Part shown: positions 3,480 through 59,396 of the stretch, one piece after another
Layout: each line of letters starts with the position of its first letter
Numbering within the stretch: position 1 is the first letter of the stretch
Assembly: GCA_003150395.1 (NCBI GenBank)
Contig: QAMI01000059.1
Span: 2,719-66,718 of the forward strand
DNA: 64,000 nt
DNA from: Candidatus Gastranaerophilales bacterium
GTDB taxonomy: Bacteria; Cyanobacteriota; Vampirovibrionia; Gastranaerophilales; Gastranaerophilaceae
Reading direction: 5' to 3'
Program-made: the position numbers and the translations under genes
Notes under the pieces: model-generated
The model's input: the letters and a program-made list of their open reading frames with translations, nothing else
Told to the model about the DNA's origin: nothing
Databases searched by the model: none

Positions 3480-4115
3480 TTAATTGTTATTTTGGTTTTG
3501 GTTTGCTTCTTTTTTAACAGTTTCTCTTACAACAGATGTTGTTCTCAAATATGATTTTTCAAGTTCGCCTTTAACGCTTACTTTACCGTCAGCCGCTACA
3601 TAAATCGAATATCTGTCAGGGGTTTTGCAGTCCTGAGTACCAGATTTGCAATTAGGAGCTTTATCGCCGTTAATGTCAACCATGATTTCTGCTTCTGTTG
3701 CAAATGAAGTATTTGGCATATAATATGCTACGCTGTCATTTGTTGTAAAGCTTATTGTTCCATTACCGTTGCAAGTGATAGTGTCATCTTCGATTGTGTT
3801 CATCTTCATTGCGAATAGCTGGCAGAATTTAGTGTTGCCGCTGTATGAAGTGTCATTAAGTGTTACTGCTGTTGTGTTATCTAAGCCTTGATATTTTGTT
3901 CCGTCATCTTTTGATGCTTCCGGATAAAGATAGTCGTCGTTAACAAGTTCTGTTACAACCCGCTCTACATTTGTATAAGCTTTTTTAAACATCATTTTTT
4001 GTCTGTCAGGCTGGATTTGGTTAATTGCCGGCAGGATTAATGATGCTATAACCCCAACAATTGCCAATGCTACCAGAATTTCGCCTAAACTGAATGCTGC
4101 TTTTCTATTTTTCAT
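3480..4115 (-). CDS. Type IV pilin-like / pseudopilin protein
   Basis: MKNRKAA|FSLGEILVALAIVGVIASLILP (E at +5, hydrophobic helix). VDINGDKAPN motif is shared with the other pilin-like genes here. Confidence 0.8.
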   Translation of the reverse strand: MKNRKAAFSLGEILVALAIVGVIASLILPAINQIQPDRQKMMFKKAYTNVERVVTELVNDDYLYPEASKDDGTKYQGLDNTTAVTLNDTSYSGNTKFCQLFAMKMNTIEDDTITCNGNGTISFTTNDSVAYYMPNTSFATEAEIMVDINGDKAPNCKSGTQDCKTPDRYSIYVAADGKVSVKGELEKSYLRTTSVVRETVKKEANQNQNNN

Positions 4116-12939: not shown

Positions 12940-12969
12940 TTTTTAGAATAGTAAAAATAAGGAGCACAA

Positions 12970-13748
12970 ATGTCAAAAACACAAGTTATTATTGGATTTA
13001 ACGGGGGGGGGGGCACCCGGAAAACAGCTCCTTAAAGCCTTTTAAAATCAATGCTTTTACTCTTGCCGAAGTTCTTGTAACTCTGGGAATTATCGGGGTA
13101 ATTGCAGCAATGACTCTTCCGTCTGTTATTAATAAGGCGGAAAAAATGATTTTAAAAAACCAATTCAAGAAAACATATTCAACATTTTCGCAAGCATTGC
13201 TTAAATCCGAAGCTGATTATGGTGCAAAACCAGCATGTTATTATCTGACATCATCAAATTCTTCTGTATCCGGACTTATCTCAAGCCAGTATCTTGATGT
13301 AGAATGCAATGTTTTAAAAACACTTTTTCTGAAAAATTTGAATGTAATTGCAACTTGCGAAGATAATGCATACCCGACCTGCATACCAAAATATAAAGGT
13401 TTTGATACCATGGCGATTGAGAATAATCCAGACTTATCAGAAGAAGAAGCTTTAGAGATAGTCAGGGGGCAGTCGGGTTTCAAGCAGAATAATATTTTAT
13501 ACAAAGCACCTGCATACGTTTTGTCAGACGGTAGTATAATTTTGAGTTATGCCTCGGCATCCTTTCCTAAAATATTTGCAATAGATATTAACGGCAAAAA
13601 AGGACCAAACAAATGGGGGCATGACCTGTTTTCTTTCTGGATTGGAAGTAATGAAAAATCTAATATTATCCTTCTCGGAACAACTTATCTGGTTGAAAAA
13701 GGCGGTGTTACATCAAGAAAAATGATACAAGATGTTCTTAAAAAATAA
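12970..13748 (+). CDS. Type IV pilin-like protein, frameshifted at a G11 tract in the leader region (candidate phase-variable gene, OFF as sequenced)
   Basis: AAGGAG (12959-12964) then ATG 12970 gives MSKTQVIIGFN-G11. The frame as sequenced stops at TAA 13033. The other frame reads HPENSSLKPFKINA|FTLAEVLVTLGIIGVIAAMTLP and runs into track ORF 13110..13748. That frame has no canonical start between TAA 12999 and FTLAE. Confidence 0.75.
13003..13013. repeat. Homopolymer G11
   Basis: Counted directly: 13003-13013 are all G. Confidence 0.95.
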
Positions 13749-37450: not shown

Positions 37451-38460
37451 CTTTCGGCCCCCAAGTTTGTAAATCTAAATCTTCTGAATTCTCCACCTAG
37501 TTTGGATAATTCTTCAATAACTCTATATCGGCTATTGCCAGGACAATAAAACATGAAAAAACCGCCGCCGCCGGCTCCTGAAATCTTTCCGCCTGTTGCA
37601 CCTGCTTTAATTGCGGTTTCATAAATATTGTCAATAACAGGATTTGAAATTGCAGATGACATTTTCTTTTTATTTTCCCAGCCGGTATTTAATAGTTCGC
37701 CCATTTTCGATAAATTTCCGGTCAACAATGCTTCTTTCATATCCAAAGACTGCTGCTTTAATTTATGCATTGCATCAATTGCTTTTTCTTCTTTTTTCTT
37801 TGTGTTTTCAACCTGACTTTCAATAATTTTAGCTGAAAGTCTGCTTGTTCCTGTATAATACAACAAAACATTGAATTCCAACTCGTTAACATATTCTTTT
37901 CTAATTCTTAAAGGATTTACCAAAACTTTCTCATTTGCGGCAAATTCCATAAAGTTAAACCCGCCAAATGCTGCAGCATATTGATCCTGACGTCCGCCTG
38001 CCATGTTTAAATCTTCGCGTTCAATACTCCAGGCAAGTTTTGCTAGGTCATATTCACCAAGCGGAAGGTTTTGCCATTCTTGAAACGCTTTTACAATTGC
38101 AACAACAAGGGTTGAGCTTGAGCCTAAACCGCTTCCGGCAGGGGCATCAACATAGGTTGTCAAAGTAAAACTCAAAGGCTTTTTTATATAATCTTTTATC
38201 AAACGATTGTACACACCTTTTAACAAATCAAATTTGCCGTCTATTTTAAAAGCTTCAACTGAATCAAAAGTGCAAAATTCACCTCTGTCTTCACATCTAA
38301 ATTCGATTTTTCCGTCATTTCTTGGCTCAATTGTTGCATAAGCATACATGTTTATACATGCATTCAGAATAGAACCTCCAAAAATGTCACAGTATGGGCT
38401 GACATCGGTTCCCCCGCCTGCTAGACCTATTCTTAATGGAGCTTTTGACCTGATAAGCAT
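37435..38460 (-). CDS. hddA: GHMP kinase, D-glycero-alpha-D-manno-heptose 7-phosphate kinase type
   Basis: SKAPLRIGLAGGGTD, PAGSGLGSSSTLVV, GGKISGAGGGGF. Neighbours are gmhA and hddC-gmhB. Confidence 0.75.
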   Translation of the reverse strand: MLIRSKAPLRIGLAGGGTDVSPYCDIFGGSILNACINMYAYATIEPRNDGKIEFRCEDRGEFCTFDSVEAFKIDGKFDLLKGVYNRLIKDYIKKPLSFTLTTYVDAPAGSGLGSSSTLVVAIVKAFQEWQNLPLGEYDLAKLAWSIEREDLNMAGGRQDQYAAAFGGFNFMEFAANEKVLVNPLRIRKEYVNELEFNVLLYYTGTSRLSAKIIESQVENTKKKEEKAIDAMHKLKQQSLDMKEALLTGNLSKMGELLNTGWENKKKMSSAISNPVIDNIYETAIKAGATGGKISGAGGGGFFMFYCPGNSRYRVIEELSKLGGEFRRFRFTNLGAESWIMM

Positions 38461-39038
38461 ACATTTTCCCCTTTAAAGATTGCTTCTTCTACCAACGCGC
38501 AAATTATATGACCAATCATTATGTGCGCTTCCTGAATTGTCGGTGTGCTTTCGGACGGTACTTTTATTATATAATCACAAAGTGTATCCATTTCGCAAGC
38601 TTTTTGACCGACGAGTCCAATAGTTGTTACATTTTTCTTTTTGGCTTCAAGGATAGCTTTTACAATATTTTTGGAATTTCCAGAAGTTGATATTGCAATA
38701 AAAACATCTCCTTCATTTGCATTTGCCTGAATTTGTCGGGAAAAAGAATTTTCATAACCGTAGTCATTTCCGATTGCAGTTAAAATTGAAGTATCGGTTG
38801 CAAGAGAAAATGCACTCAAACCAGGTCTATCAAAAAAGAATTTTGAAACGAGTTCCCCTGCAATATGCTGAGCGTCTCCGGCTGAGCCCCCATTGCCCGC
38901 TGTTAAAACCTTTTTGCCGTTAATATAGGCTTCTACAATAACATTGGCTGATTTTTGAATTGTTTTAAGTAAGTTGTTATCATTTAATATTTCTTGCTTT
39001 GTTTTTATTGATGCCTCAATGTAGTTTTCTATGAACAT
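38433..39038 (-). CDS. gmhA: Phosphoheptose isomerase (SIS domain)
   Basis: GNGGSAGDAQHIAGEL, TAIGNDYGYE, ISTSGNSKN. ATG 39038 is preceded by AAGGAG; the track ORF starts at 39086. Confidence 0.85.
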   Translation of the reverse strand: MFIENYIEASIKTKQEILNDNNLLKTIQKSANVIVEAYINGKKVLTAGNGGSAGDAQHIAGELVSKFFFDRPGLSAFSLATDTSILTAIGNDYGYENSFSRQIQANANEGDVFIAISTSGNSKNIVKAILEAKKKNVTTIGLVGQKACEMDTLCDYIIKVPSESTPTIQEAHIMIGHIICALVEEAIFKGENVCLSGQKLH

Positions 39039-40098
39039 TTTAATAGGTCTCCTTTGTTTTGAAACTTGCCTAAAACGATTGGACAATATTTTTCTAATAT
39101 TTTAATTGTGTAGTAGTTTATAAGCAATAGTATGAATGTGAATATTATTAAAAATATTAGTTTTAGGATTATATTTGGAAAGTAATTTATTATTTGTGTA
39201 TTCAAAATTCGTAGAGGAAAAAGCAGTAACTCATGAAAAAATATTATAAATAATGTATTTTTTGCTATAGTTTTTATAAATTCATTTTCATCGCAGAAAA
39301 ATTTAGAAATTATACATATCATATATGTTCCGATTATGCCACCTAAATATGATAAAAACAAGGATTGATTTTGAATATTTTTATTAGGAAGACTCATTTC
39401 TATCACTCCGTTATGTGAAAGTATATTTTCTAATAGTAAATAACTAATTATAACCCCCCCCCCCCAGCTCTAAGCCCTTTTTTAGTATAGCTTTTCAGCA
39501 TATAGCCAAAAGTGAAATAAGGTACCGCCATTAGAGTATTATCAAGGCAAAAATATAAATTTATATTATTTATAAATAAAAATTTACATATAAATATTGC
39601 TGAAATGTTTAACAAAACTAAATTTCTAATATTTAAATTTATATTATTAAATAGTAATCTAAGTTGTATGATTGTCATTATAAACCAGCATGGCGCGCAA
39701 TTTGGTATTGAAATAGGTGTACTAGAAGCATCTCCAAGAATTGCTCCACTGACAATTCCTAATATTTTATATCCTAAATAAGGTTTTATTAGAAACAAAT
39801 ACCAAGCTTTAAAAGGTAAGTATATAATCTGGTAAATTAAATAAGGAATTAAAAGTCCATATAAAATTTTTTTATAGTTATCAGTTTTTGTTTTTGATTT
39901 ATATAAATACCCTGCCATAATAAAGAATAAAGGCATATGAAATAGATAGATAAAATCCCATAGATGTGAGAAAAATGTAGAATTTTTTAGAAGTCCAAAT
40001 GGCGATAATGTATGCCCAAAGACTACCAAAAATATTCCAATAAACTTTGCAATATCTACCCAAACAATATTTCTATTTTCAATAATATTTTCAGACAA
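39029..40098 (-). CDS. Acyltransferase-3 (OafA/YrhL-like) membrane O-acyltransferase, split by a G12 tract (candidate phase-variable gene, OFF as sequenced)
   Basis: Track ORFs 39448..40098 (N-terminus NRNIVWVDIAKFIGIFLVVFGH) and 39029..39406 are both polytopic. Together they equal one acyltransferase of about 350 aa. The second frame is open back through the tract. Confidence 0.8.
39454..39465. repeat. Homopolymer C12 on + strand (G12 in the gene sense)
   Basis: Counted directly. Confidence 0.95.
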
Positions 40099-53669: not shown

Positions 53670-54489
53670 TTATTTAAGCATTTCTTCAAACATTTGTTTT
53701 CCGGTTTTACCACCCTTTTCGGTTGCGTAAGTAATAGGAACTAAGCTAGTTATACCGTTTACATTATCCCCCTTCAACTGGAAGGTAAACATATCATATC
53801 CCCATTTATTCGGGTTTTTATGACCATTGATGTCAATGGTGAATAATGGTGTTGTGGAGCTATACCCAAGTATAATAGTTCCGTCCGCTAAAACCCACGC
53901 CGGCCACTTTTCTTTAATGTTTTTGTCGCTAAACCCACTATTCGGGTCTGGGTTTGCTTCTGGATTGTTTTCAAGTTTTACCTTATCAACGCCTTTGTGC
54001 TTATTTGTAATACAACCTTTCTCAAGTGCTTTATTCTGACAATATGTTGCAACATTCAGTGTCTTGAATAGTTGTTCTCTGAATATTTTACATTCATTCA
54101 TGCCACCGTTATAATCTGATGGAAGAGATGAACCATCAGGCATTGACCATTTATTACAGTTACCATATTCGTTACGGTTGGTGCAGGTTGCGGCGGGGTA
54201 TGGTGAGTTTGCCCAGTAGAAACAATTAATCGGCGCTTCATTTTTTGCCTGAACCAATTTTATTCCATTAAAAAGGATGTTGTAAGCTTTTTTGTACTGG
54301 TTTTTCAAAATCATGTTTTGTGCTTTGTTAATGACTGAAGGTAAGGTCATCGCAGCTATAATTCCGATAATCCCAAGTGTGATTAAAACCTCTGATAATG
54401 TAAACCCTTTTGAAAAATGGTTAAAACCATTGCTATGACTGAATTCTACGGGGGGGGGGGCAGCCCATAATTCCTATTCCTCTAAGCAT
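53670..54489 (-). CDS. Type IV pilin-like protein, frameshifted at a C11 tract in the leader region (candidate phase-variable gene, OFF as sequenced)
   Basis: AGGAGG (rc of 54495-54500) then ATG 54489 gives MLRGIGIMGC-C11. The frame as sequenced ends RRIQS*. The other frame reads VEFSHSNGFNHFSKG|FTLSEVLITLGIIGIIAAMTLP and runs into track ORF 53670..54350. That frame has no canonical start upstream of FTLSE. Confidence 0.75.
54450..54460. repeat. Homopolymer G11 on + strand (C11 in the gene sense)
   Basis: Counted directly. Confidence 0.95.
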
Positions 54490-54535
54490 TTTTACCTCCT
54501 GTATTTTTGAATAGTGCATGCTAATGATATCATTT

Positions 54536-55681: not shown

Positions 55682-56380
55682 TTACCACGGATAATCATCT
55701 CTGATTTCCCAGCCATCTGCCATAATCAACCCTAAACAAAATGCACCGTTTGTATCGCCGGCTTCTTTTCTACAACCATATCTTTGTGATTTAATAATTT
55801 CATTTCTGTCAAATTTTGAATATCCGCCAATATCGGATGTCCCTTTATAACCAAAAGGAACAAGGCCGTAGTCTTTAGATATAACAATCGCAAAAAAATC
55901 TTTTCCAAATTTGTTTGGCTTTTTATATCCGTTTAAATCAATACAGATAATCTTAAAAGGAAGATATGAGTACTGCTGGGTATTACTTAAATAAAATGTT
56001 GTTCCGTCAACAGTGCTTACAATCAGTGCTTCGGAGTAAAATGGAGTAAATGTATTTTCAATAGTTCCATTTGGCCTTGTATATTGAATTTTATCAGATA
56101 TTTTCCCATAAGATGTCATATTAATTGTTTTTAATTGAGGTTTTATATATTGATTAAAAAATTCAGCAGACGTCTGATTATAATTCCAATATGTCAGATT
56201 TTCGTTTTTTAGCTCAGAAAGTTCTATTGCCTGAGATAATATTGAATAAACTTTTTTTAATTGGTTTATTGTCTGAATTTTTTGATATTTCCCGATTAAC
56301 GCAGGTAGCGTTATAGCCGCAACAATTCCGATAATACCTAATGTTATTAAAACTTCTGGCATGGTGAATGCTTTTTTCAT
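55682..56380 (-). CDS. Type IV pilin-like protein
   Basis: MKKA|FTMPEVLITLGIIGIVAAITLP; IDLNGYKKPNKFGKDFF. The C-terminus YGCRKEAGDTNGAFCLGLIMADGWEIRDDYPW parallels 58634..59332. Confidence 0.85.
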   Translation of the reverse strand: MKKAFTMPEVLITLGIIGIVAAITLPALIGKYQKIQTINQLKKVYSILSQAIELSELKNENLTYWNYNQTSAEFFNQYIKPQLKTINMTSYGKISDKIQYTRPNGTIENTFTPFYSEALIVSTVDGTTFYLSNTQQYSYLPFKIICIDLNGYKKPNKFGKDFFAIVISKDYGLVPFGYKGTSDIGGYSKFDRNEIIKSQRYGCRKEAGDTNGAFCLGLIMADGWEIRDDYPW

Positions 56381-58386: not shown

Positions 58387-58494
58387 AAATTTACTCCCTT
58401 GGTTTTATTTTACAGCAAATAAAACATTTGATAAAATTTCAAATAAATGGTATTATATAAATAGAATTAAAAAAGAATATAAGGAGCTAAGTTT

Positions 58495-58545
58495 ATGAAA
58501 AAGCGCACTATGACTGAATTGCCGGGGGGGGGGGGCATCCGCTAA
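58495..58545 (+). CDS. Upstream mini-ORF containing a G12 tract (MKKRTMTELPGGGGIR*); becomes the start of the downstream pilin at G11
   Basis: AAGGAG (58481-58486), 8-nt spacer, ATG 58495, stop TAA 58543. With one G fewer, the frame continues without a stop into MKKG|FTLAEV. Confidence 0.5.
   Translation: MKKRTMTELPGGGGIR
58524..58535. repeat. Homopolymer G12
   Basis: Counted directly. Confidence 0.95.
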
Positions 58546-58633
58546 TAGCACTCCTCACAGTTTTTTACGTATCTTGTGTATTGCTCATAATAATAATAAA
58601 ATGCTTAATGTATTAGGTGACATAAAGGGCGAT

Positions 58634-59332
58634 ATGAAAAAAGGTTTTACATTAGCGGAAGTTTTAATAACTCTTGGTGTCATCGGAATTATTGCAGCAA
58701 TGACTTTTCCAATGATGATTACCAAATATCAAAAACAGGTTACAGTTGAGCGTCTAAAGAAATTTTATTCTGTCATGCAAAATGCTATCAGGCTTTCTGA
58801 AGCTGATAATGGAGAAATGGCAGATTGGGATTTCCCTAAAGATACCTATGACAGAAATATGAAGACATTTTTTGACAGATATTACAGACCTTACTTGAAA
58901 GATTCTCAGGAATGCAGTAAGTCCTTATGTTTTAAACATGAAAAATATGATATTTATTACTTGAATGGGAAACCTGCTGGAGGAATTTATTCTGATAATT
59001 ATATAGTTAAGTTGAATGATGGGATGTATGTTTATTTTCTTCCAAATACTCCGGCAGCTTATATTTGGATGTTTGTTGACATAAACGGGCATCAGAAGCC
59101 AAACACCATAGGAAGGGACATTTTTGTTTTTGATATATATAGTTATCCTGCAAGGGCTCAACGCAAAAATTATCACATGAAATTCTGGGGTGAATACGAT
59201 AAAGATGATGGAAAATTAACTGACAGTAATGATTATGGCTGCAACAAGTCAGCATCTAGATATTCAGGTTTTAAATGCGGTGAATTAATCTTACGAAGCG
59301 GCTGGAAAATCCCCAAAAATTACCCCTGGTAG
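58634..59332 (+). CDS. Type IV pilin-like protein
   Basis: MKKG|FTLAEVLITLGVIGIIAAMTFP; VDINGHQKPNTIGRDIF; C-terminus YGCNKSASRYSGFKCGELILRSGWKIPKNYPW. There is only a weak SD (AAGGG) before ATG 58634. Confidence 0.85.
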   Translation: MKKGFTLAEVLITLGVIGIIAAMTFPMMITKYQKQVTVERLKKFYSVMQNAIRLSEADNGEMADWDFPKDTYDRNMKTFFDRYYRPYLKDSQECSKSLCFKHEKYDIYYLNGKPAGGIYSDNYIVKLNDGMYVYFLPNTPAAYIWMFVDINGHQKPNTIGRDIFVFDIYSYPARAQRKNYHMKFWGEYDKDDGKLTDSNDYGCNKSASRYSGFKCGELILRSGWKIPKNYPW

Positions 59333-59338
59333 GCGCAC

Positions 59339-59396
59339 ACGTAGTGTGCTTTTACACATTGGCTCAGTCATACTAATATCGCTGGTGAAGGAATTA
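59339..59396 (+). repeat. Direct repeat copy 1 (58 nt)
   Basis: ACGTAGTGTGCTTTTACACATTGGCTCAGTCATACTAATATCGCTGGTGAAGGAATTA. Confidence 0.85.

What the first reader, a model, noticed from the sequence alone, without database searches (positions are those of the whole stretch)
58480..58645. Pilin-like gene 3: three-state G12 switch in an upstream mini-ORF
The strong SD AAGGAG (58481-58486) serves ATG 58495, not the pilin's own ATG 58634, which has only AAGGG.
- With G12 as sequenced, the upstream ORF is MKKRTMTELPGGGGIR* (stop at 58543).
- With G11 it reads on without a stop through ASANSTPHSFLRILCIAHNNNKMLNVLGDIKGD into MKKG|FTLAEV. This gives a prepilin with a leader of about 50 aa.
- With G13 it gives a hydrophobic peptide of about 40 aa (GGGGHPLIALLTVFYVSCVLLIIIIKCLMY*).

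The tract could thus modulate pilin translation between a weak internal start and a strong upstream start, rather than simply switching it ON or OFF.
Basis: partly seen in the sequence, partly recalled or inferred. Interest (0 to 1): 0.65.

Follow-up and report, generated by a model that had tools for sequence, protein, structure and literature searches.

The report
Poly-G on/off switch in pilin leader
A run of 12 G's just after the true start codon of a pilin-like gene in an uncultured gut bacterium (Gastranaerophilales) acts as a slippage-prone on/off switch. The same design recurs in about half of this pilin family. It is a classical mechanism found in a lineage where it had not been described.

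Summary
In detail: AAGGAG 58481-86, ATG 58495, G12 58524-35, stop 58543-45, and MKKG|FTLAEV from 58634.

**Length variation.** Syntenic copies of this locus in other assemblies differ at the tract:
- One copy has G10 and no other difference over 3.6 kb.
- A 97%-identical strain has G11 and encodes the predicted 278-aa fusion.
- Three further copies have G12.

**Family pattern.**
- 43 of 89 related pilin-like genes carry a G/C tract of 8-12 upstream.
- Each tract follows a strong SD, an ATG and about 9 codons.
- Across 42 non-redundant tract-to-pilin linkers there are 2 stops in the pilin frame. The other two frames have 132 and 167.
- Tract-bearing genes almost never have their own start.

**Conclusion.** The upstream ATG is the real start. 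The tract lies inside a long prepilin leader, which I infer is cleaved off. The switch is one ON frame and two OFF frames, and the window copy is OFF.

**Three-state idea.** The graded reading is not supported. The internal ATG 58634 is TTG in close relatives, and the G13 peptide is not conserved.

This is a new member of a known kind, analogous to Neisseria pilC and opa. I found no report of phase variation in Melainabacteria.

The parts
58428..58456 (+). Promoter-like site: TTGATA, 17 nt, TG-TATTAT (extended -10). It would start the mRNA about 30 nt before ATG 58495.
   Evidence: Consensus scan, 10 of 12 matches. No transcript data, so this is inferred.
58481..58486 (+). Strong Shine-Dalgarno AAGGAG, 8 nt before ATG 58495.
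   Evidence: The same SD+ATG arrangement precedes the tract in 43 family members.
58495..58523 (+). True start codon plus 9 codons and 2 nt (MKKRTMTEL, then CC of the Pro codon) before the tract. A second in-frame ATG lies at 58510.
   Evidence: The number of codons before the tract peaks at 9-10 across the family. The same N-terminus appears in L009, L096, L008 and L001.
58524..58535 (+). G12 homopolymer, the slippage-prone switch. G11/G14 is ON. G12 (as sequenced) is OFF. G10/G13 is the other OFF frame.
   Evidence: At the same syntenic locus elsewhere: G10 in L095 (no other difference in 3.6 kb), G11 in L096, G12 in L097-99.
58543..58545 (+). TAA that ends the 16-aa product in the G12 (as-sequenced) OFF frame.
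58536..58633 (+). Linker. It codes the rest of the long leader in the ON frame (ASANSTPHSFLRILCIAHNNNKMLNVLGDIKGD). It is open in the pilin frame, and its amino-acid sequence is unconstrained.
   Evidence: Across the family there are 2 stops in the pilin frame, against 132 and 167 in the other frames, over 1612 linker codons. The linker differs by 17-18% from 97%-identical strains but stays open.
58548..58556 (+). Degenerate copy (GCACTCCTC) of the family's GCTCC box. Its function is unknown.
   Evidence: 18 of 36 family members have GCTCC within 30 nt after the tract. The relatives L096-99 have GCGCTCC here.
58614..58616 (+). TAG that ends the 39-40 aa peptide of the G10/G13 OFF frame, 17 nt before ATG 58634.
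   Evidence: L095 is in this frame.
58625..58636 (+). Weak SD-like AAGGG plus internal ATG 58634 (MKKG). Probably a relic short-leader start, and at most a minor start.
   Evidence: This codon is TTG in L096-L099.
58646..59332 (+). Mature pilin-like protein (FTLAEVLITLG...DYPW) with its stop codon. It matches Pfam N_methyl and DUF6613. The predicted prepilin-peptidase cut lies between 58645 and 58646.
   Evidence: Pfam. AlphaFold2 model with pLDDT 92.3: long N-terminal helix plus a beta domain.
12959..13748 (+). Sister switch, pilin-like gene 1: SD, ATG 12970, G11 at 13003-13013, A|FTLAEV at 13056. ON at G12/G9. It has no internal start.
53670..54500 (-). Sister switch, pilin-like gene 2: SD, ATG 54489-54487, C11 at 54460-54450, G|FTLSEV at 54404. 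ON at C10/C13. It has no internal start.

Best explanation
Gene 3 is a phase-variable prepilin gene of a Candidatus Gastranaerophilales gut bacterium.

**How it works**
- Translation starts at ATG 58495, behind the strong SD.
- The G tract sits ten codons in, inside an unusually long N-terminal leader (50 aa in the ON form).
- Slipped-strand mispairing during replication changes the number of G's.
- With G11 or G14, the ribosome reads through the linker into MKKG|FTLAEV and makes the full prepilin.
- The prepilin peptidase would then remove the whole leader at G|F. The tract-encoded glycines and the unconstrained linker would therefore never appear in the mature protein.
- With G12 (this window) or G10/G13, translation ends after 16 or about 40 codons, and the pilin is essentially not made.

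**Shown**
- The anatomy.
- Length polymorphism at this very locus, with all three frames present in nature.
- Family-wide preservation of the open frame.
- Absence of independent starts in tract-bearing genes.

**Inferred**
- Slippage as the source of the length changes.
- Use of the upstream start.
- Cleavage of the long leader.
- The phenotypic on/off outcome.
For: 1. **Tracts are not chance.** There are four G/C runs of 11-12 in a 34% G+C window whose next longest is 6. Three have the same SD-ATG-tract-open frame-prepilin layout.
2. **Same locus, different lengths.** All copies are syntenic (ilvD, gene 3, Wzy_C).
   - L095 has 0 mismatches over 3.6 kb and differs only by G10 against G12.
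   - L096 has G11 and encodes the 278-aa fusion, called as protein P0134.
   - L097-99 have G12.
3. **Family layout.**
   - All 7 relatives from Gastranaerophilales genomes have a G tract in this position, one of them interrupted by an A.
   - 43 of 89 family genes have a tract of 8 or more.
   - 41 of 42 non-redundant linkers are open in the pilin frame, against 1 and 3 in the other two frames. Stops number 2 against 132 and 167 over 1612 codons.
4. **Dependence on the upstream start.** Tract genes lack their own start: 7 of 43 have an ATG and 1 has an SD. Tract-less genes have 35 of 46 with an ATG and 27 with an SD.
5. **Other natural ON/OFF or length pairs.**
   - L062 (G11, ON) and L061 (G12, OFF) are 99.7% identical over 3.7 kb.
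   - L006 (G9) against L091-93 (G10), L001 against L090, and L004 against L094.
6. **Specificity.** 52 of 53 G/C runs of 9 or more in 392 kb of fetched DNA lie in pilin-like leaders.
7. **A real pilin.** N_methyl and DUF6613 match, and the predicted fold is helix plus a beta domain.
8. **Peptidase in the order.** pilD is reported in a Gastranaerophilus genome (PMC5877343).
Against: - No raw reads were available, only assembled contigs. Switching within one population and its rate are not shown.
- No transcript or protein data exist for either start.
- A 50-aa leader is longer than any leader I know for type IV prepilins (about 5-30 aa, from my own knowledge). Cleavage is assumed, not shown.
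- 38 of 43 family tracts are OFF in the assembly consensus. This fits a mostly-silent gene family. It could also point to an RNA-level or ribosomal slippage contribution.
- This allele does keep an ATG at the classical short-leader position, so some tract-independent expression is possible.
Confidence: 0.85

Rival explanations
1. G11 gives strong expression from the upstream start. G12 gives weak expression from the internal ATG 58634. G13 gives a third level, for instance through the hydrophobic peptide or through re-initiation after its stop 17 nt before ATG 58634.
For: - ATG 58634 sits at the classical MKKG position used by tract-less family members, and it has a weak AAGGG in front.
- The G13/G10 frame ends only 17 nt upstream of it.
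- All three frames occur in nature.
Against: - The codon is TTG in L096-L099, including the ON allele.
- Internal starts are absent from genes 1 and 2 and from 36 of 43 tract genes.
- The G13 frame closes at once in L008.
- The OFF-frame stop after G12 lies 88 nt before ATG 58634, too far for coupling.
- No stable RNA structure was found that the upstream ribosome could open.
Confidence: 0.12
2. RNA-level rescue. The long G run lets RNA polymerase or the ribosome slip, so that OFF genotypes still yield some in-frame protein. DNA length then only tunes the level.
For: - A run of GGG codons lets the Gly-tRNA re-pair in any frame.
- 38 of 43 tracts are OFF in consensus, with a bias towards 'one G short' (26 against 12).
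- A conserved GCTCC box follows the tract.
Against: - Both +1 and -1 relations occur, and orthologues change relation (window ON at G11, L008 ON at G13/G10). This is unlike fixed programmed frameshift sites.
- In-frame alleles exist.
- No conserved stimulatory structure was found. Fold z-scores are positive and the covariation test is negative.
- The OFF excess is also explained by selection for silence, deletion bias or assembly bias.
Confidence: 0.1
3. The mini-ORF is an independent regulatory leader peptide or 5'-UTR element. The tract acts through spacing or RNA structure, not through the reading frame.
For: - As sequenced, the uORF is separate and ends before the pilin.
- The GCTCC box is complementary to the SD. 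The mean SD:box duplex is -8.0 kcal/mol, against -5.4 for controls.
Against: - The pilin frame is open back through the tract in 41 of 42 non-redundant linkers, up to 349 nt long. A non-translated spacer would not show this.
- The fused form exists.
- No Rfam family matches.
- The region folds no better than shuffled sequence.
- There is no SD:box covariation (p = 0.21).
Confidence: 0.03

Closest known systems
Neisseria pilC (poly-G run in the signal-peptide coding region) and opa genes (CTCTT repeats in the leader-peptide region)
   Same: - A slippage-prone repeat sits in the part of the ORF that encodes a cleaved N-terminal leader. Repeat length sets the frame, and the mature protein is unaffected.
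- For opa, it is a multi-copy family of surface proteins in which most copies are OFF at any time.
- This comparison rests on my own knowledge. My literature search for pilC returned nothing in the held library.
   Different: - Here the leader is a class III (prepilin) leader cut by a prepilin peptidase on the cytoplasmic side, not a Sec signal peptide.
- The leader is extended to 20-130 aa by an unconstrained linker.
- The organism is an uncultured non-photosynthetic cyanobacterial relative.
- The protein family is DUF6613.
Campylobacter jejuni / Helicobacter pylori poly-G/C contingency loci
   Same: G/C homopolymers of 8-13 in an A+T-rich genome, lying within the 5' part of genes for surface structures. 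They are ON/OFF by frame, and many loci occur per genome.
   Different: Those tracts mostly sit in glycosyltransferase, flagellar-modification and restriction-modification genes, not in a pilin family. They have no dedicated leader module (SD, about 9 codons, tract, GCTCC box).
Haemophilus influenzae licA (lic1) CAAT-repeat translational switch with several initiation codons
   Same: Repeats lie just downstream of the start codons, and their length aligns or misaligns the start with the ORF (PMC2212159).
   Different: In licA, starts in two different frames upstream of the repeat make two of the three frames productive. Here all upstream starts (58495, 58510, TTG 58519) share one frame. The only other candidate start lies downstream of the tract and is not conserved.

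Membership tests
Simple-sequence-repeat translational phase variation (contingency locus) | A repeat tract far longer than composition predicts, inside or at the 5' end of an ORF | tested here: met
   G12 in a 34% G+C window. There are only four G/C runs longer than 6, all of 11-12.
Simple-sequence-repeat translational phase variation (contingency locus) | One tract-length class (mod 3) gives the full-length product and the other two truncate | tested here: met
   G11/G14 gives 278-279 aa. G12 gives 16 aa. G10/G13 gives 39-40 aa.
Simple-sequence-repeat translational phase variation (contingency locus) | Tract length differs between otherwise (near-)identical copies of the same locus | tested here: met
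   Window G12 against L095 G10, with 0 mismatches in 3.6 kb. L096 has G11 and L097-99 have G12. In the family, L061 has G12 and L062 has G11.
Simple-sequence-repeat translational phase variation (contingency locus) | High-frequency reversible switching within a clonal population, with matching loss or gain of the product | not testable with these tools
   Only assembled contigs of the public runs were available, with no raw reads. There is no culture.
Type IV prepilin (class III signal peptide substrate) | G/A at -1, F at +1, E at +5, followed by a hydrophobic helix of about 20 residues | tested here: met
   MKKG|FTLAEVLITLGVIGIIAAMT. Pfam N_methyl, E = 6e-6. The model has a helix over residues 7-59 plus a beta domain, pLDDT 92.3.
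Type IV prepilin (class III signal peptide substrate) | A short leader (about 5-30 residues) | tested here: not met
   The ON product has a 50-residue leader. Family leaders run from about 20 to over 130 residues. The 4-residue leader MKKG exists only if the non-conserved internal ATG is used.
Type IV prepilin (class III signal peptide substrate) | A prepilin peptidase and assembly genes in the same genome | not tested
   Not searched for in the window. A T2SS-F/PilC-like gene lies next to the relative in L008. pilA, B, C, T and D are reported for a Gastranaerophilus genome (PMC5877343).
Type IV prepilin (class III signal peptide substrate) | A globular head that resembles solved pilins | tested here: inconclusive
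   Foldseek against the PDB found no match with E < 1. The sequence search hits only the N-terminal helix of pilins.
licA-type multi-start graded translational switch | Initiation codons in at least two different frames upstream of the repeat, so that two frames are productive | tested here: not met
   All starts that read into the tract (58495, 58510, 58519) are in one frame.
Programmed ribosomal frameshift site | A fixed frame relation and a conserved stimulatory structure across relatives | tested here: not met
   In-frame, +1-needed and -1-needed relations all occur. No stable or covarying structure was found.

The most novel reading that the evidence does not exclude
The module may be more than a bare tract. 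The conserved nucleotide box (TTTAAGCTCCTT) just after the tract is read in all three frames and is complementary to the SD. Together with the fixed spacing of about 9 codons, it could be a second cis-acting layer. For example, it might sequester the SD on transcripts whose ribosomes stop early, or it might be a DNA feature that tunes slippage. Either would make this a new variant of phase-variation control, specific to Gastranaerophilales pilins.
Probability: 0.15. Interest if true: 0.6.

Novelty: new member of a known kind. Interest (0 to 1): 0.42.

Why it matters
- Gastranaerophilales are uncultured gut relatives of cyanobacteria, and little is known about their surface biology.
- About half of a large pilin-like family (DUF6613) is wired to poly-G switches, and most copies are silent in any assembly. 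This implies that these bacteria stochastically vary their pili or pseudopili, presumably under pressure from the host, phages or competitors. I found no report of this.
- There is a practical consequence for annotation. These genes are routinely mis-called: the start is placed at an internal codon, the product is truncated, or the ORF is extended into the promoter. Tract length should be read as an expression state.
- Very long, sequence-free leaders appear to be tolerated on prepilins. That is a testable point about prepilin peptidase substrate limits.

Tried and rejected
- **Raw-read tract-length spectra.** Three run searches (any, RNA, DNA) returned only assembled contigs for runs that hold the locus. 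The raw-read RNA runs offered belong to the host-species label. Laying contigs showed G12 in a 93%-identical allele (runs X1, X2, X3, X5) and in a second contig in X8. It also showed contig breaks at the tract, but no within-sample variation.
- **RNA element.** No Rfam match above noise. The 5' region folds no better than shuffles, with z = +1.6 and +1.9.
- **SD:GCTCC-box hairpin.** The duplex is stronger than controls. Flank pairing is no better than with permuted partners, p = 0.21. I therefore do not claim it.
- **Early OFF-frame stops.** I considered whether OFF-frame stops always precede the box, which would fit a frame-sensing model. Reading the sequences shows counter-examples in gene 1 and L054.
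- **Antisense gene from the box.** The reverse strand reads AAGGAGC..NTG-C(n), but the start codons are inconsistent, so I rejected this.
- **Internal promoter.** TTTACG-16-CATAAT at 58564-58591 is a weak match of a kind expected by chance. Its -10 is altered in relatives.
- **'ON' status of database proteins with GGG leaders.** Some are gene-caller extensions into the promoter, such as P0029. I therefore relied on DNA-level pairs instead.
- **Fold search of the head domain.** No PDB relative was found.

Full report
**1. Observation**

The sequence is as described.
- AAGGAG lies at 58481-58486 and the ATG at 58495.
- After nine codons and two bases (MKKRTMTEL, then CC of the Pro codon) comes G12, at 58524-58535.
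- As sequenced, the ORF ends at TAA 58543-58545 (MKKRTMTELPGGGGIR).
- Removing one G (or adding two) opens the frame through 33 more codons into MKKG|FTLAEV. This gives a 278-aa product.
- Adding one G (or removing two) gives a 39-40 aa peptide that ends at TAG 58614-58616.
- The pilin's nearer ATG (58634) has only AAGGG in front, 4 nt away.

The tract is not chance. The window is 34% G+C and contains exactly four G/C runs longer than 6, of lengths 11, 11, 12 and 12.

**2. The same design three times in the window**

Three of the four tracts share one layout: strong SD, ATG, 9-11 codons, tract, 14-36 open codons, then a prepilin cleavage motif.
- Gene 1 (G11, 13003-13013) would be ON at G12.
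- Gene 2 (C11 on the minus strand, 54460-54450) would be ON at C10.
- Neither gene has any start codon between the tract and the cleavage site, so for them the upstream ATG is the only possible start.

A fourth pilin-like gene (55682-56380, minus strand) has no tract and an ordinary SD-MKKA start. The fourth tract (39454-39465) interrupts an acyltransferase-like ORF.

**3. Organism and protein**
- Relatives of the pilin in species-representative genomes all come from Candidatus Gastranaerophilales/Gastranaerophilaceae MAGs.
- Public runs that hold the locus are gut metagenomes.
- The protein matches Pfam N_methyl and DUF6613.
- An AlphaFold2 model (pLDDT 92.3) has the pilin-type long N-terminal helix plus a beta domain.
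- The head has no Foldseek relative in the PDB. Only the N-terminal helix matches solved pilins by sequence.

**4. The decisive evidence: the same locus elsewhere**

The gene callers of the public collection had called this gene from ATG 58601, as a 243-aa product. Looking that product up, together with its 90% cluster, gave five more syntenic copies (ilvD, gene 3, Wzy_C) from independent assemblies.

| Copy | Relation to the window | Tract | State |
|---|---|---|---|
| window | - | G12 | OFF, 16-aa product |
| L095 | 0 mismatches over 3.6 kb; the only difference is the tract | G10 | OFF, the other frame (39-aa peptide) |
| L096 | 96.7% identical | G11 | ON |
| L097-L099 | 97% identical | G12 | OFF |

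L096 encodes exactly the predicted fusion: MKKHTMTEFQGGGVSANSAPHSFLRILHVAQNDDKMFNILGCKKGDLKKG|FTLAEV..., 278 aa, already called as protein P0134.

So all three reading-frame states exist in nature at this locus. The tract changes while the surrounding 3.6 kb does not. In L096-L099 the codon at 58634 is TTG, not ATG.

**5. The family-wide pattern**
- All seven genome relatives carry a G tract 60-275 nt before the cleavage site. Six are G9-12 and one is interrupted by an A.
- An unbiased fetch of 80 metagenome loci encoding family members brought the total to 89 genes with at least 150 nt of upstream sequence. Of these, 43 have a G or C run of 8-12 upstream on the coding strand.
- In 42 non-redundant cases the linker between tract and cleavage site is 10-349 nt long. 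Over 1612 codons it contains 2 stops in the pilin frame, against 132 and 167 in the other frames. In the pilin frame 41 of 42 linkers are fully open, against 1 and 3.
- Upstream there is always a good SD and an ATG, with a mode of 9-10 codons before the tract.
- Tract-bearing genes nearly always lack a start of their own: 7 of 43 have an ATG within 15 codons of the cleavage site, and 1 has an SD. Among tract-less genes, 35 of 46 have the ATG and 27 have an SD.
- Further natural pairs differ only or mainly at the tract:
  - L061 (G12, OFF) against L062 (G11, ON), 99.7% identical over 3.7 kb.
  - L006 (G9) against L091-93 (G10).
  - L004 (GGGGGAGGGGGG) against L094 (G11).
  - L001 against L090.
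- The 93%-identical paralogue L008 has the same 5' module with G12 but an unrelated 263-nt linker. That linker is still open, and the ON phase is different (G13/G10).
- Of 53 G/C runs of 9 or more in the 392 kb examined, 52 are in pilin-like leaders.

**6. Mechanism**

The upstream ATG is the real start, and the tract lies within the coding sequence of a long leader.

I infer the following steps.
- Slipped-strand mispairing changes the tract length.
- One length class in three yields the prepilin.
- The prepilin peptidase removes the whole leader at G|F. pilD is reported in the order (PMC5877343).

The leader stays on the cytoplasmic side and is discarded, so its sequence is free to drift. This fits two observations:
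- The linker is the most divergent 100 nt of the locus between 97%-identical strains (17-18%, against 2.6-3.0% overall).
- In the pilin frame, 3 of its codon changes are synonymous and 11 are not, with no new stop.

The window copy (G12) is OFF. Across the family, 38 of 43 tracts are OFF in the assembly consensus: 26 are one G short and 12 are one G long. The probability of 5 or fewer ON under equal phases is 0.001. This is what a mostly-silent multigene family would show. Deletion bias, assembly bias or RNA-level slippage could also contribute.

**7. The three-state idea**

The further claim of a graded switch rests on ATG 58634 and on the G13 peptide.
- The ATG is not conserved even among 97%-identical strains, and internal starts are absent from most tract-bearing genes.
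- The G13 frame closes immediately in L008.
- The G12 stop lies 88 nt upstream of 58634.
- No RNA structure links the two.

MKKG is the standard short leader of tract-less family members. The internal ATG therefore looks like a remnant of a short-leader ancestor that acquired the 5' module. A low basal level from it in this allele cannot be excluded without experiments.

**8. Comparison with known systems**
- In mechanism this is a classical contingency locus.
- The closest precedents place the repeat in the cleaved leader: Neisseria pilC (poly-G) and opa (CTCTT), both from my own knowledge.
- The poly-G/C loci of Campylobacter and Helicobacter are also close.
- The licA multi-start switch (PMC2212159) is the precedent for more than two states. 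Its defining feature, starts in two frames upstream of the repeat, is not met here.
- What differs is the lineage, the protein family (DUF6613 pilin-like), the class III leader extended far beyond usual lengths, and a conserved module around the tract.
- Searches of the held literature found nothing on phase variation in Gastranaerophilales or Melainabacteria, or on DUF6613.

**9. Left unexplained**
- **A nucleotide box after the tract.**
  - GCTCC (consensus TTTAAGCTCCTT) follows the tract within 30 nt in 18 of 36 G-tract genes, against 1 and 0 in the next two windows.
  - It is read in all three frames (as LSS, AP or KLL), so it is conserved as DNA or RNA, not as protein.
  - It is complementary to the SD, but I found no covariation and no stable fold.
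- **The excess of OFF states** in assembly consensus sequences.
- **The hypervariable linker.**

**Verdict**

This is an ordinary mechanism in a new place, with a well-documented family-wide pattern.

Noticed in passing
window 58548-58556; family loci L002, L007, L008, L012, L014, L021, L051, L054, L058, L061 and others, 6-25 nt after the tract: A conserved nucleotide box, GCTCC (consensus TTTAAGCTCCTT), follows the tract in 18 of 36 G-tract genes. It is read in all three frames, so it is conserved as DNA or RNA. It is complementary to the SD AAGGAGC(T), but I found no covariation and no stable fold. Its function is unknown.
   Followed up: partly
window 58536-58633 against L096 and L097: The leader linker is the most divergent 100 nt of the 3.7-kb locus between 97%-identical strains (17-18%, against 2.6-3.0% overall and 2-7% in the flanking intergenic DNA). 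It falls into two allele types. This suggests relaxed constraint plus recombination, or accelerated change near the tract.
   Followed up: partly
window 39454-39465 (minus-strand gene, about 38433-40098): The fourth long tract (G12 on the coding strand) interrupts an Acyl_transf_3-like membrane protein. It is OFF as sequenced and would be ON at G13 or G10. It is probably another phase-variable surface-modification gene.
   Followed up: partly
window 12959-13748 (+) and 53670-54500 (-): Pilin-like genes 1 and 2 carry the same SD-ATG-tract-leader design (G11 and C11). Both are OFF as sequenced and neither has an internal start. So all three tract-bearing pilin-like genes in this window are silent.
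   Followed up: yes
43 family loci (window, L001-L089): 38 of 43 tracts are OFF in the assembly consensus. 26 need one more G and 12 need one fewer. Possible causes are selection for silence, deletion bias, assembly bias and RNA-level slippage. I did not resolve which applies.
   Followed up: partly
L008 3130-3195; L031, L078, L079 and L087 upstream of the cleavage site; L029, L033, L076, L079, L088; L001/L090: Linkers of other family members contain repeated DNA elements kept in frame. One is a heptad-like run, TTTCACG TTTCACT TCTCACT TTTCAC (translated FSRFTSHFS). Another is a 'decoy' AFTLAEGATHV segment with the palindrome GCTACGCACGTAGC, followed by a second A|FTLAEV. A third is a MITE-like VILNLIQNL segment.
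   Followed up: no
L004 about 3945-3960 against L094 288-298: In one genome the tract is interrupted (GGGGGAGGGGGG). A 98.8%-identical copy has an uninterrupted G11. The interrupted form is possibly a 'locked' allele.
   Followed up: no
Protein calls P0121, P0122, P0029, P0001 and others: Public gene calls for these loci are inconsistent. Starts are placed at internal ATG or TTG codons, products are N-terminally truncated, or ORFs are extended upstream into the promoter. The cause is that the tract is out of frame.
   Followed up: partly
window 58634-59329 (model m5e69ba132a8b): The DUF6613 head domain is predicted with high confidence (pLDDT 92.3) but has no Foldseek match in the PDB (best E = 2.4). 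It contains invariant Cys residues and a C-terminal DYPW motif.
   Followed up: partly
window 59334-59356: A hairpin, GCACAC-GTA-GTGTGC followed by TTTT, lies directly after the pilin stop codon. It is a possible terminator that falls below the scan's T-run threshold.
   Followed up: no
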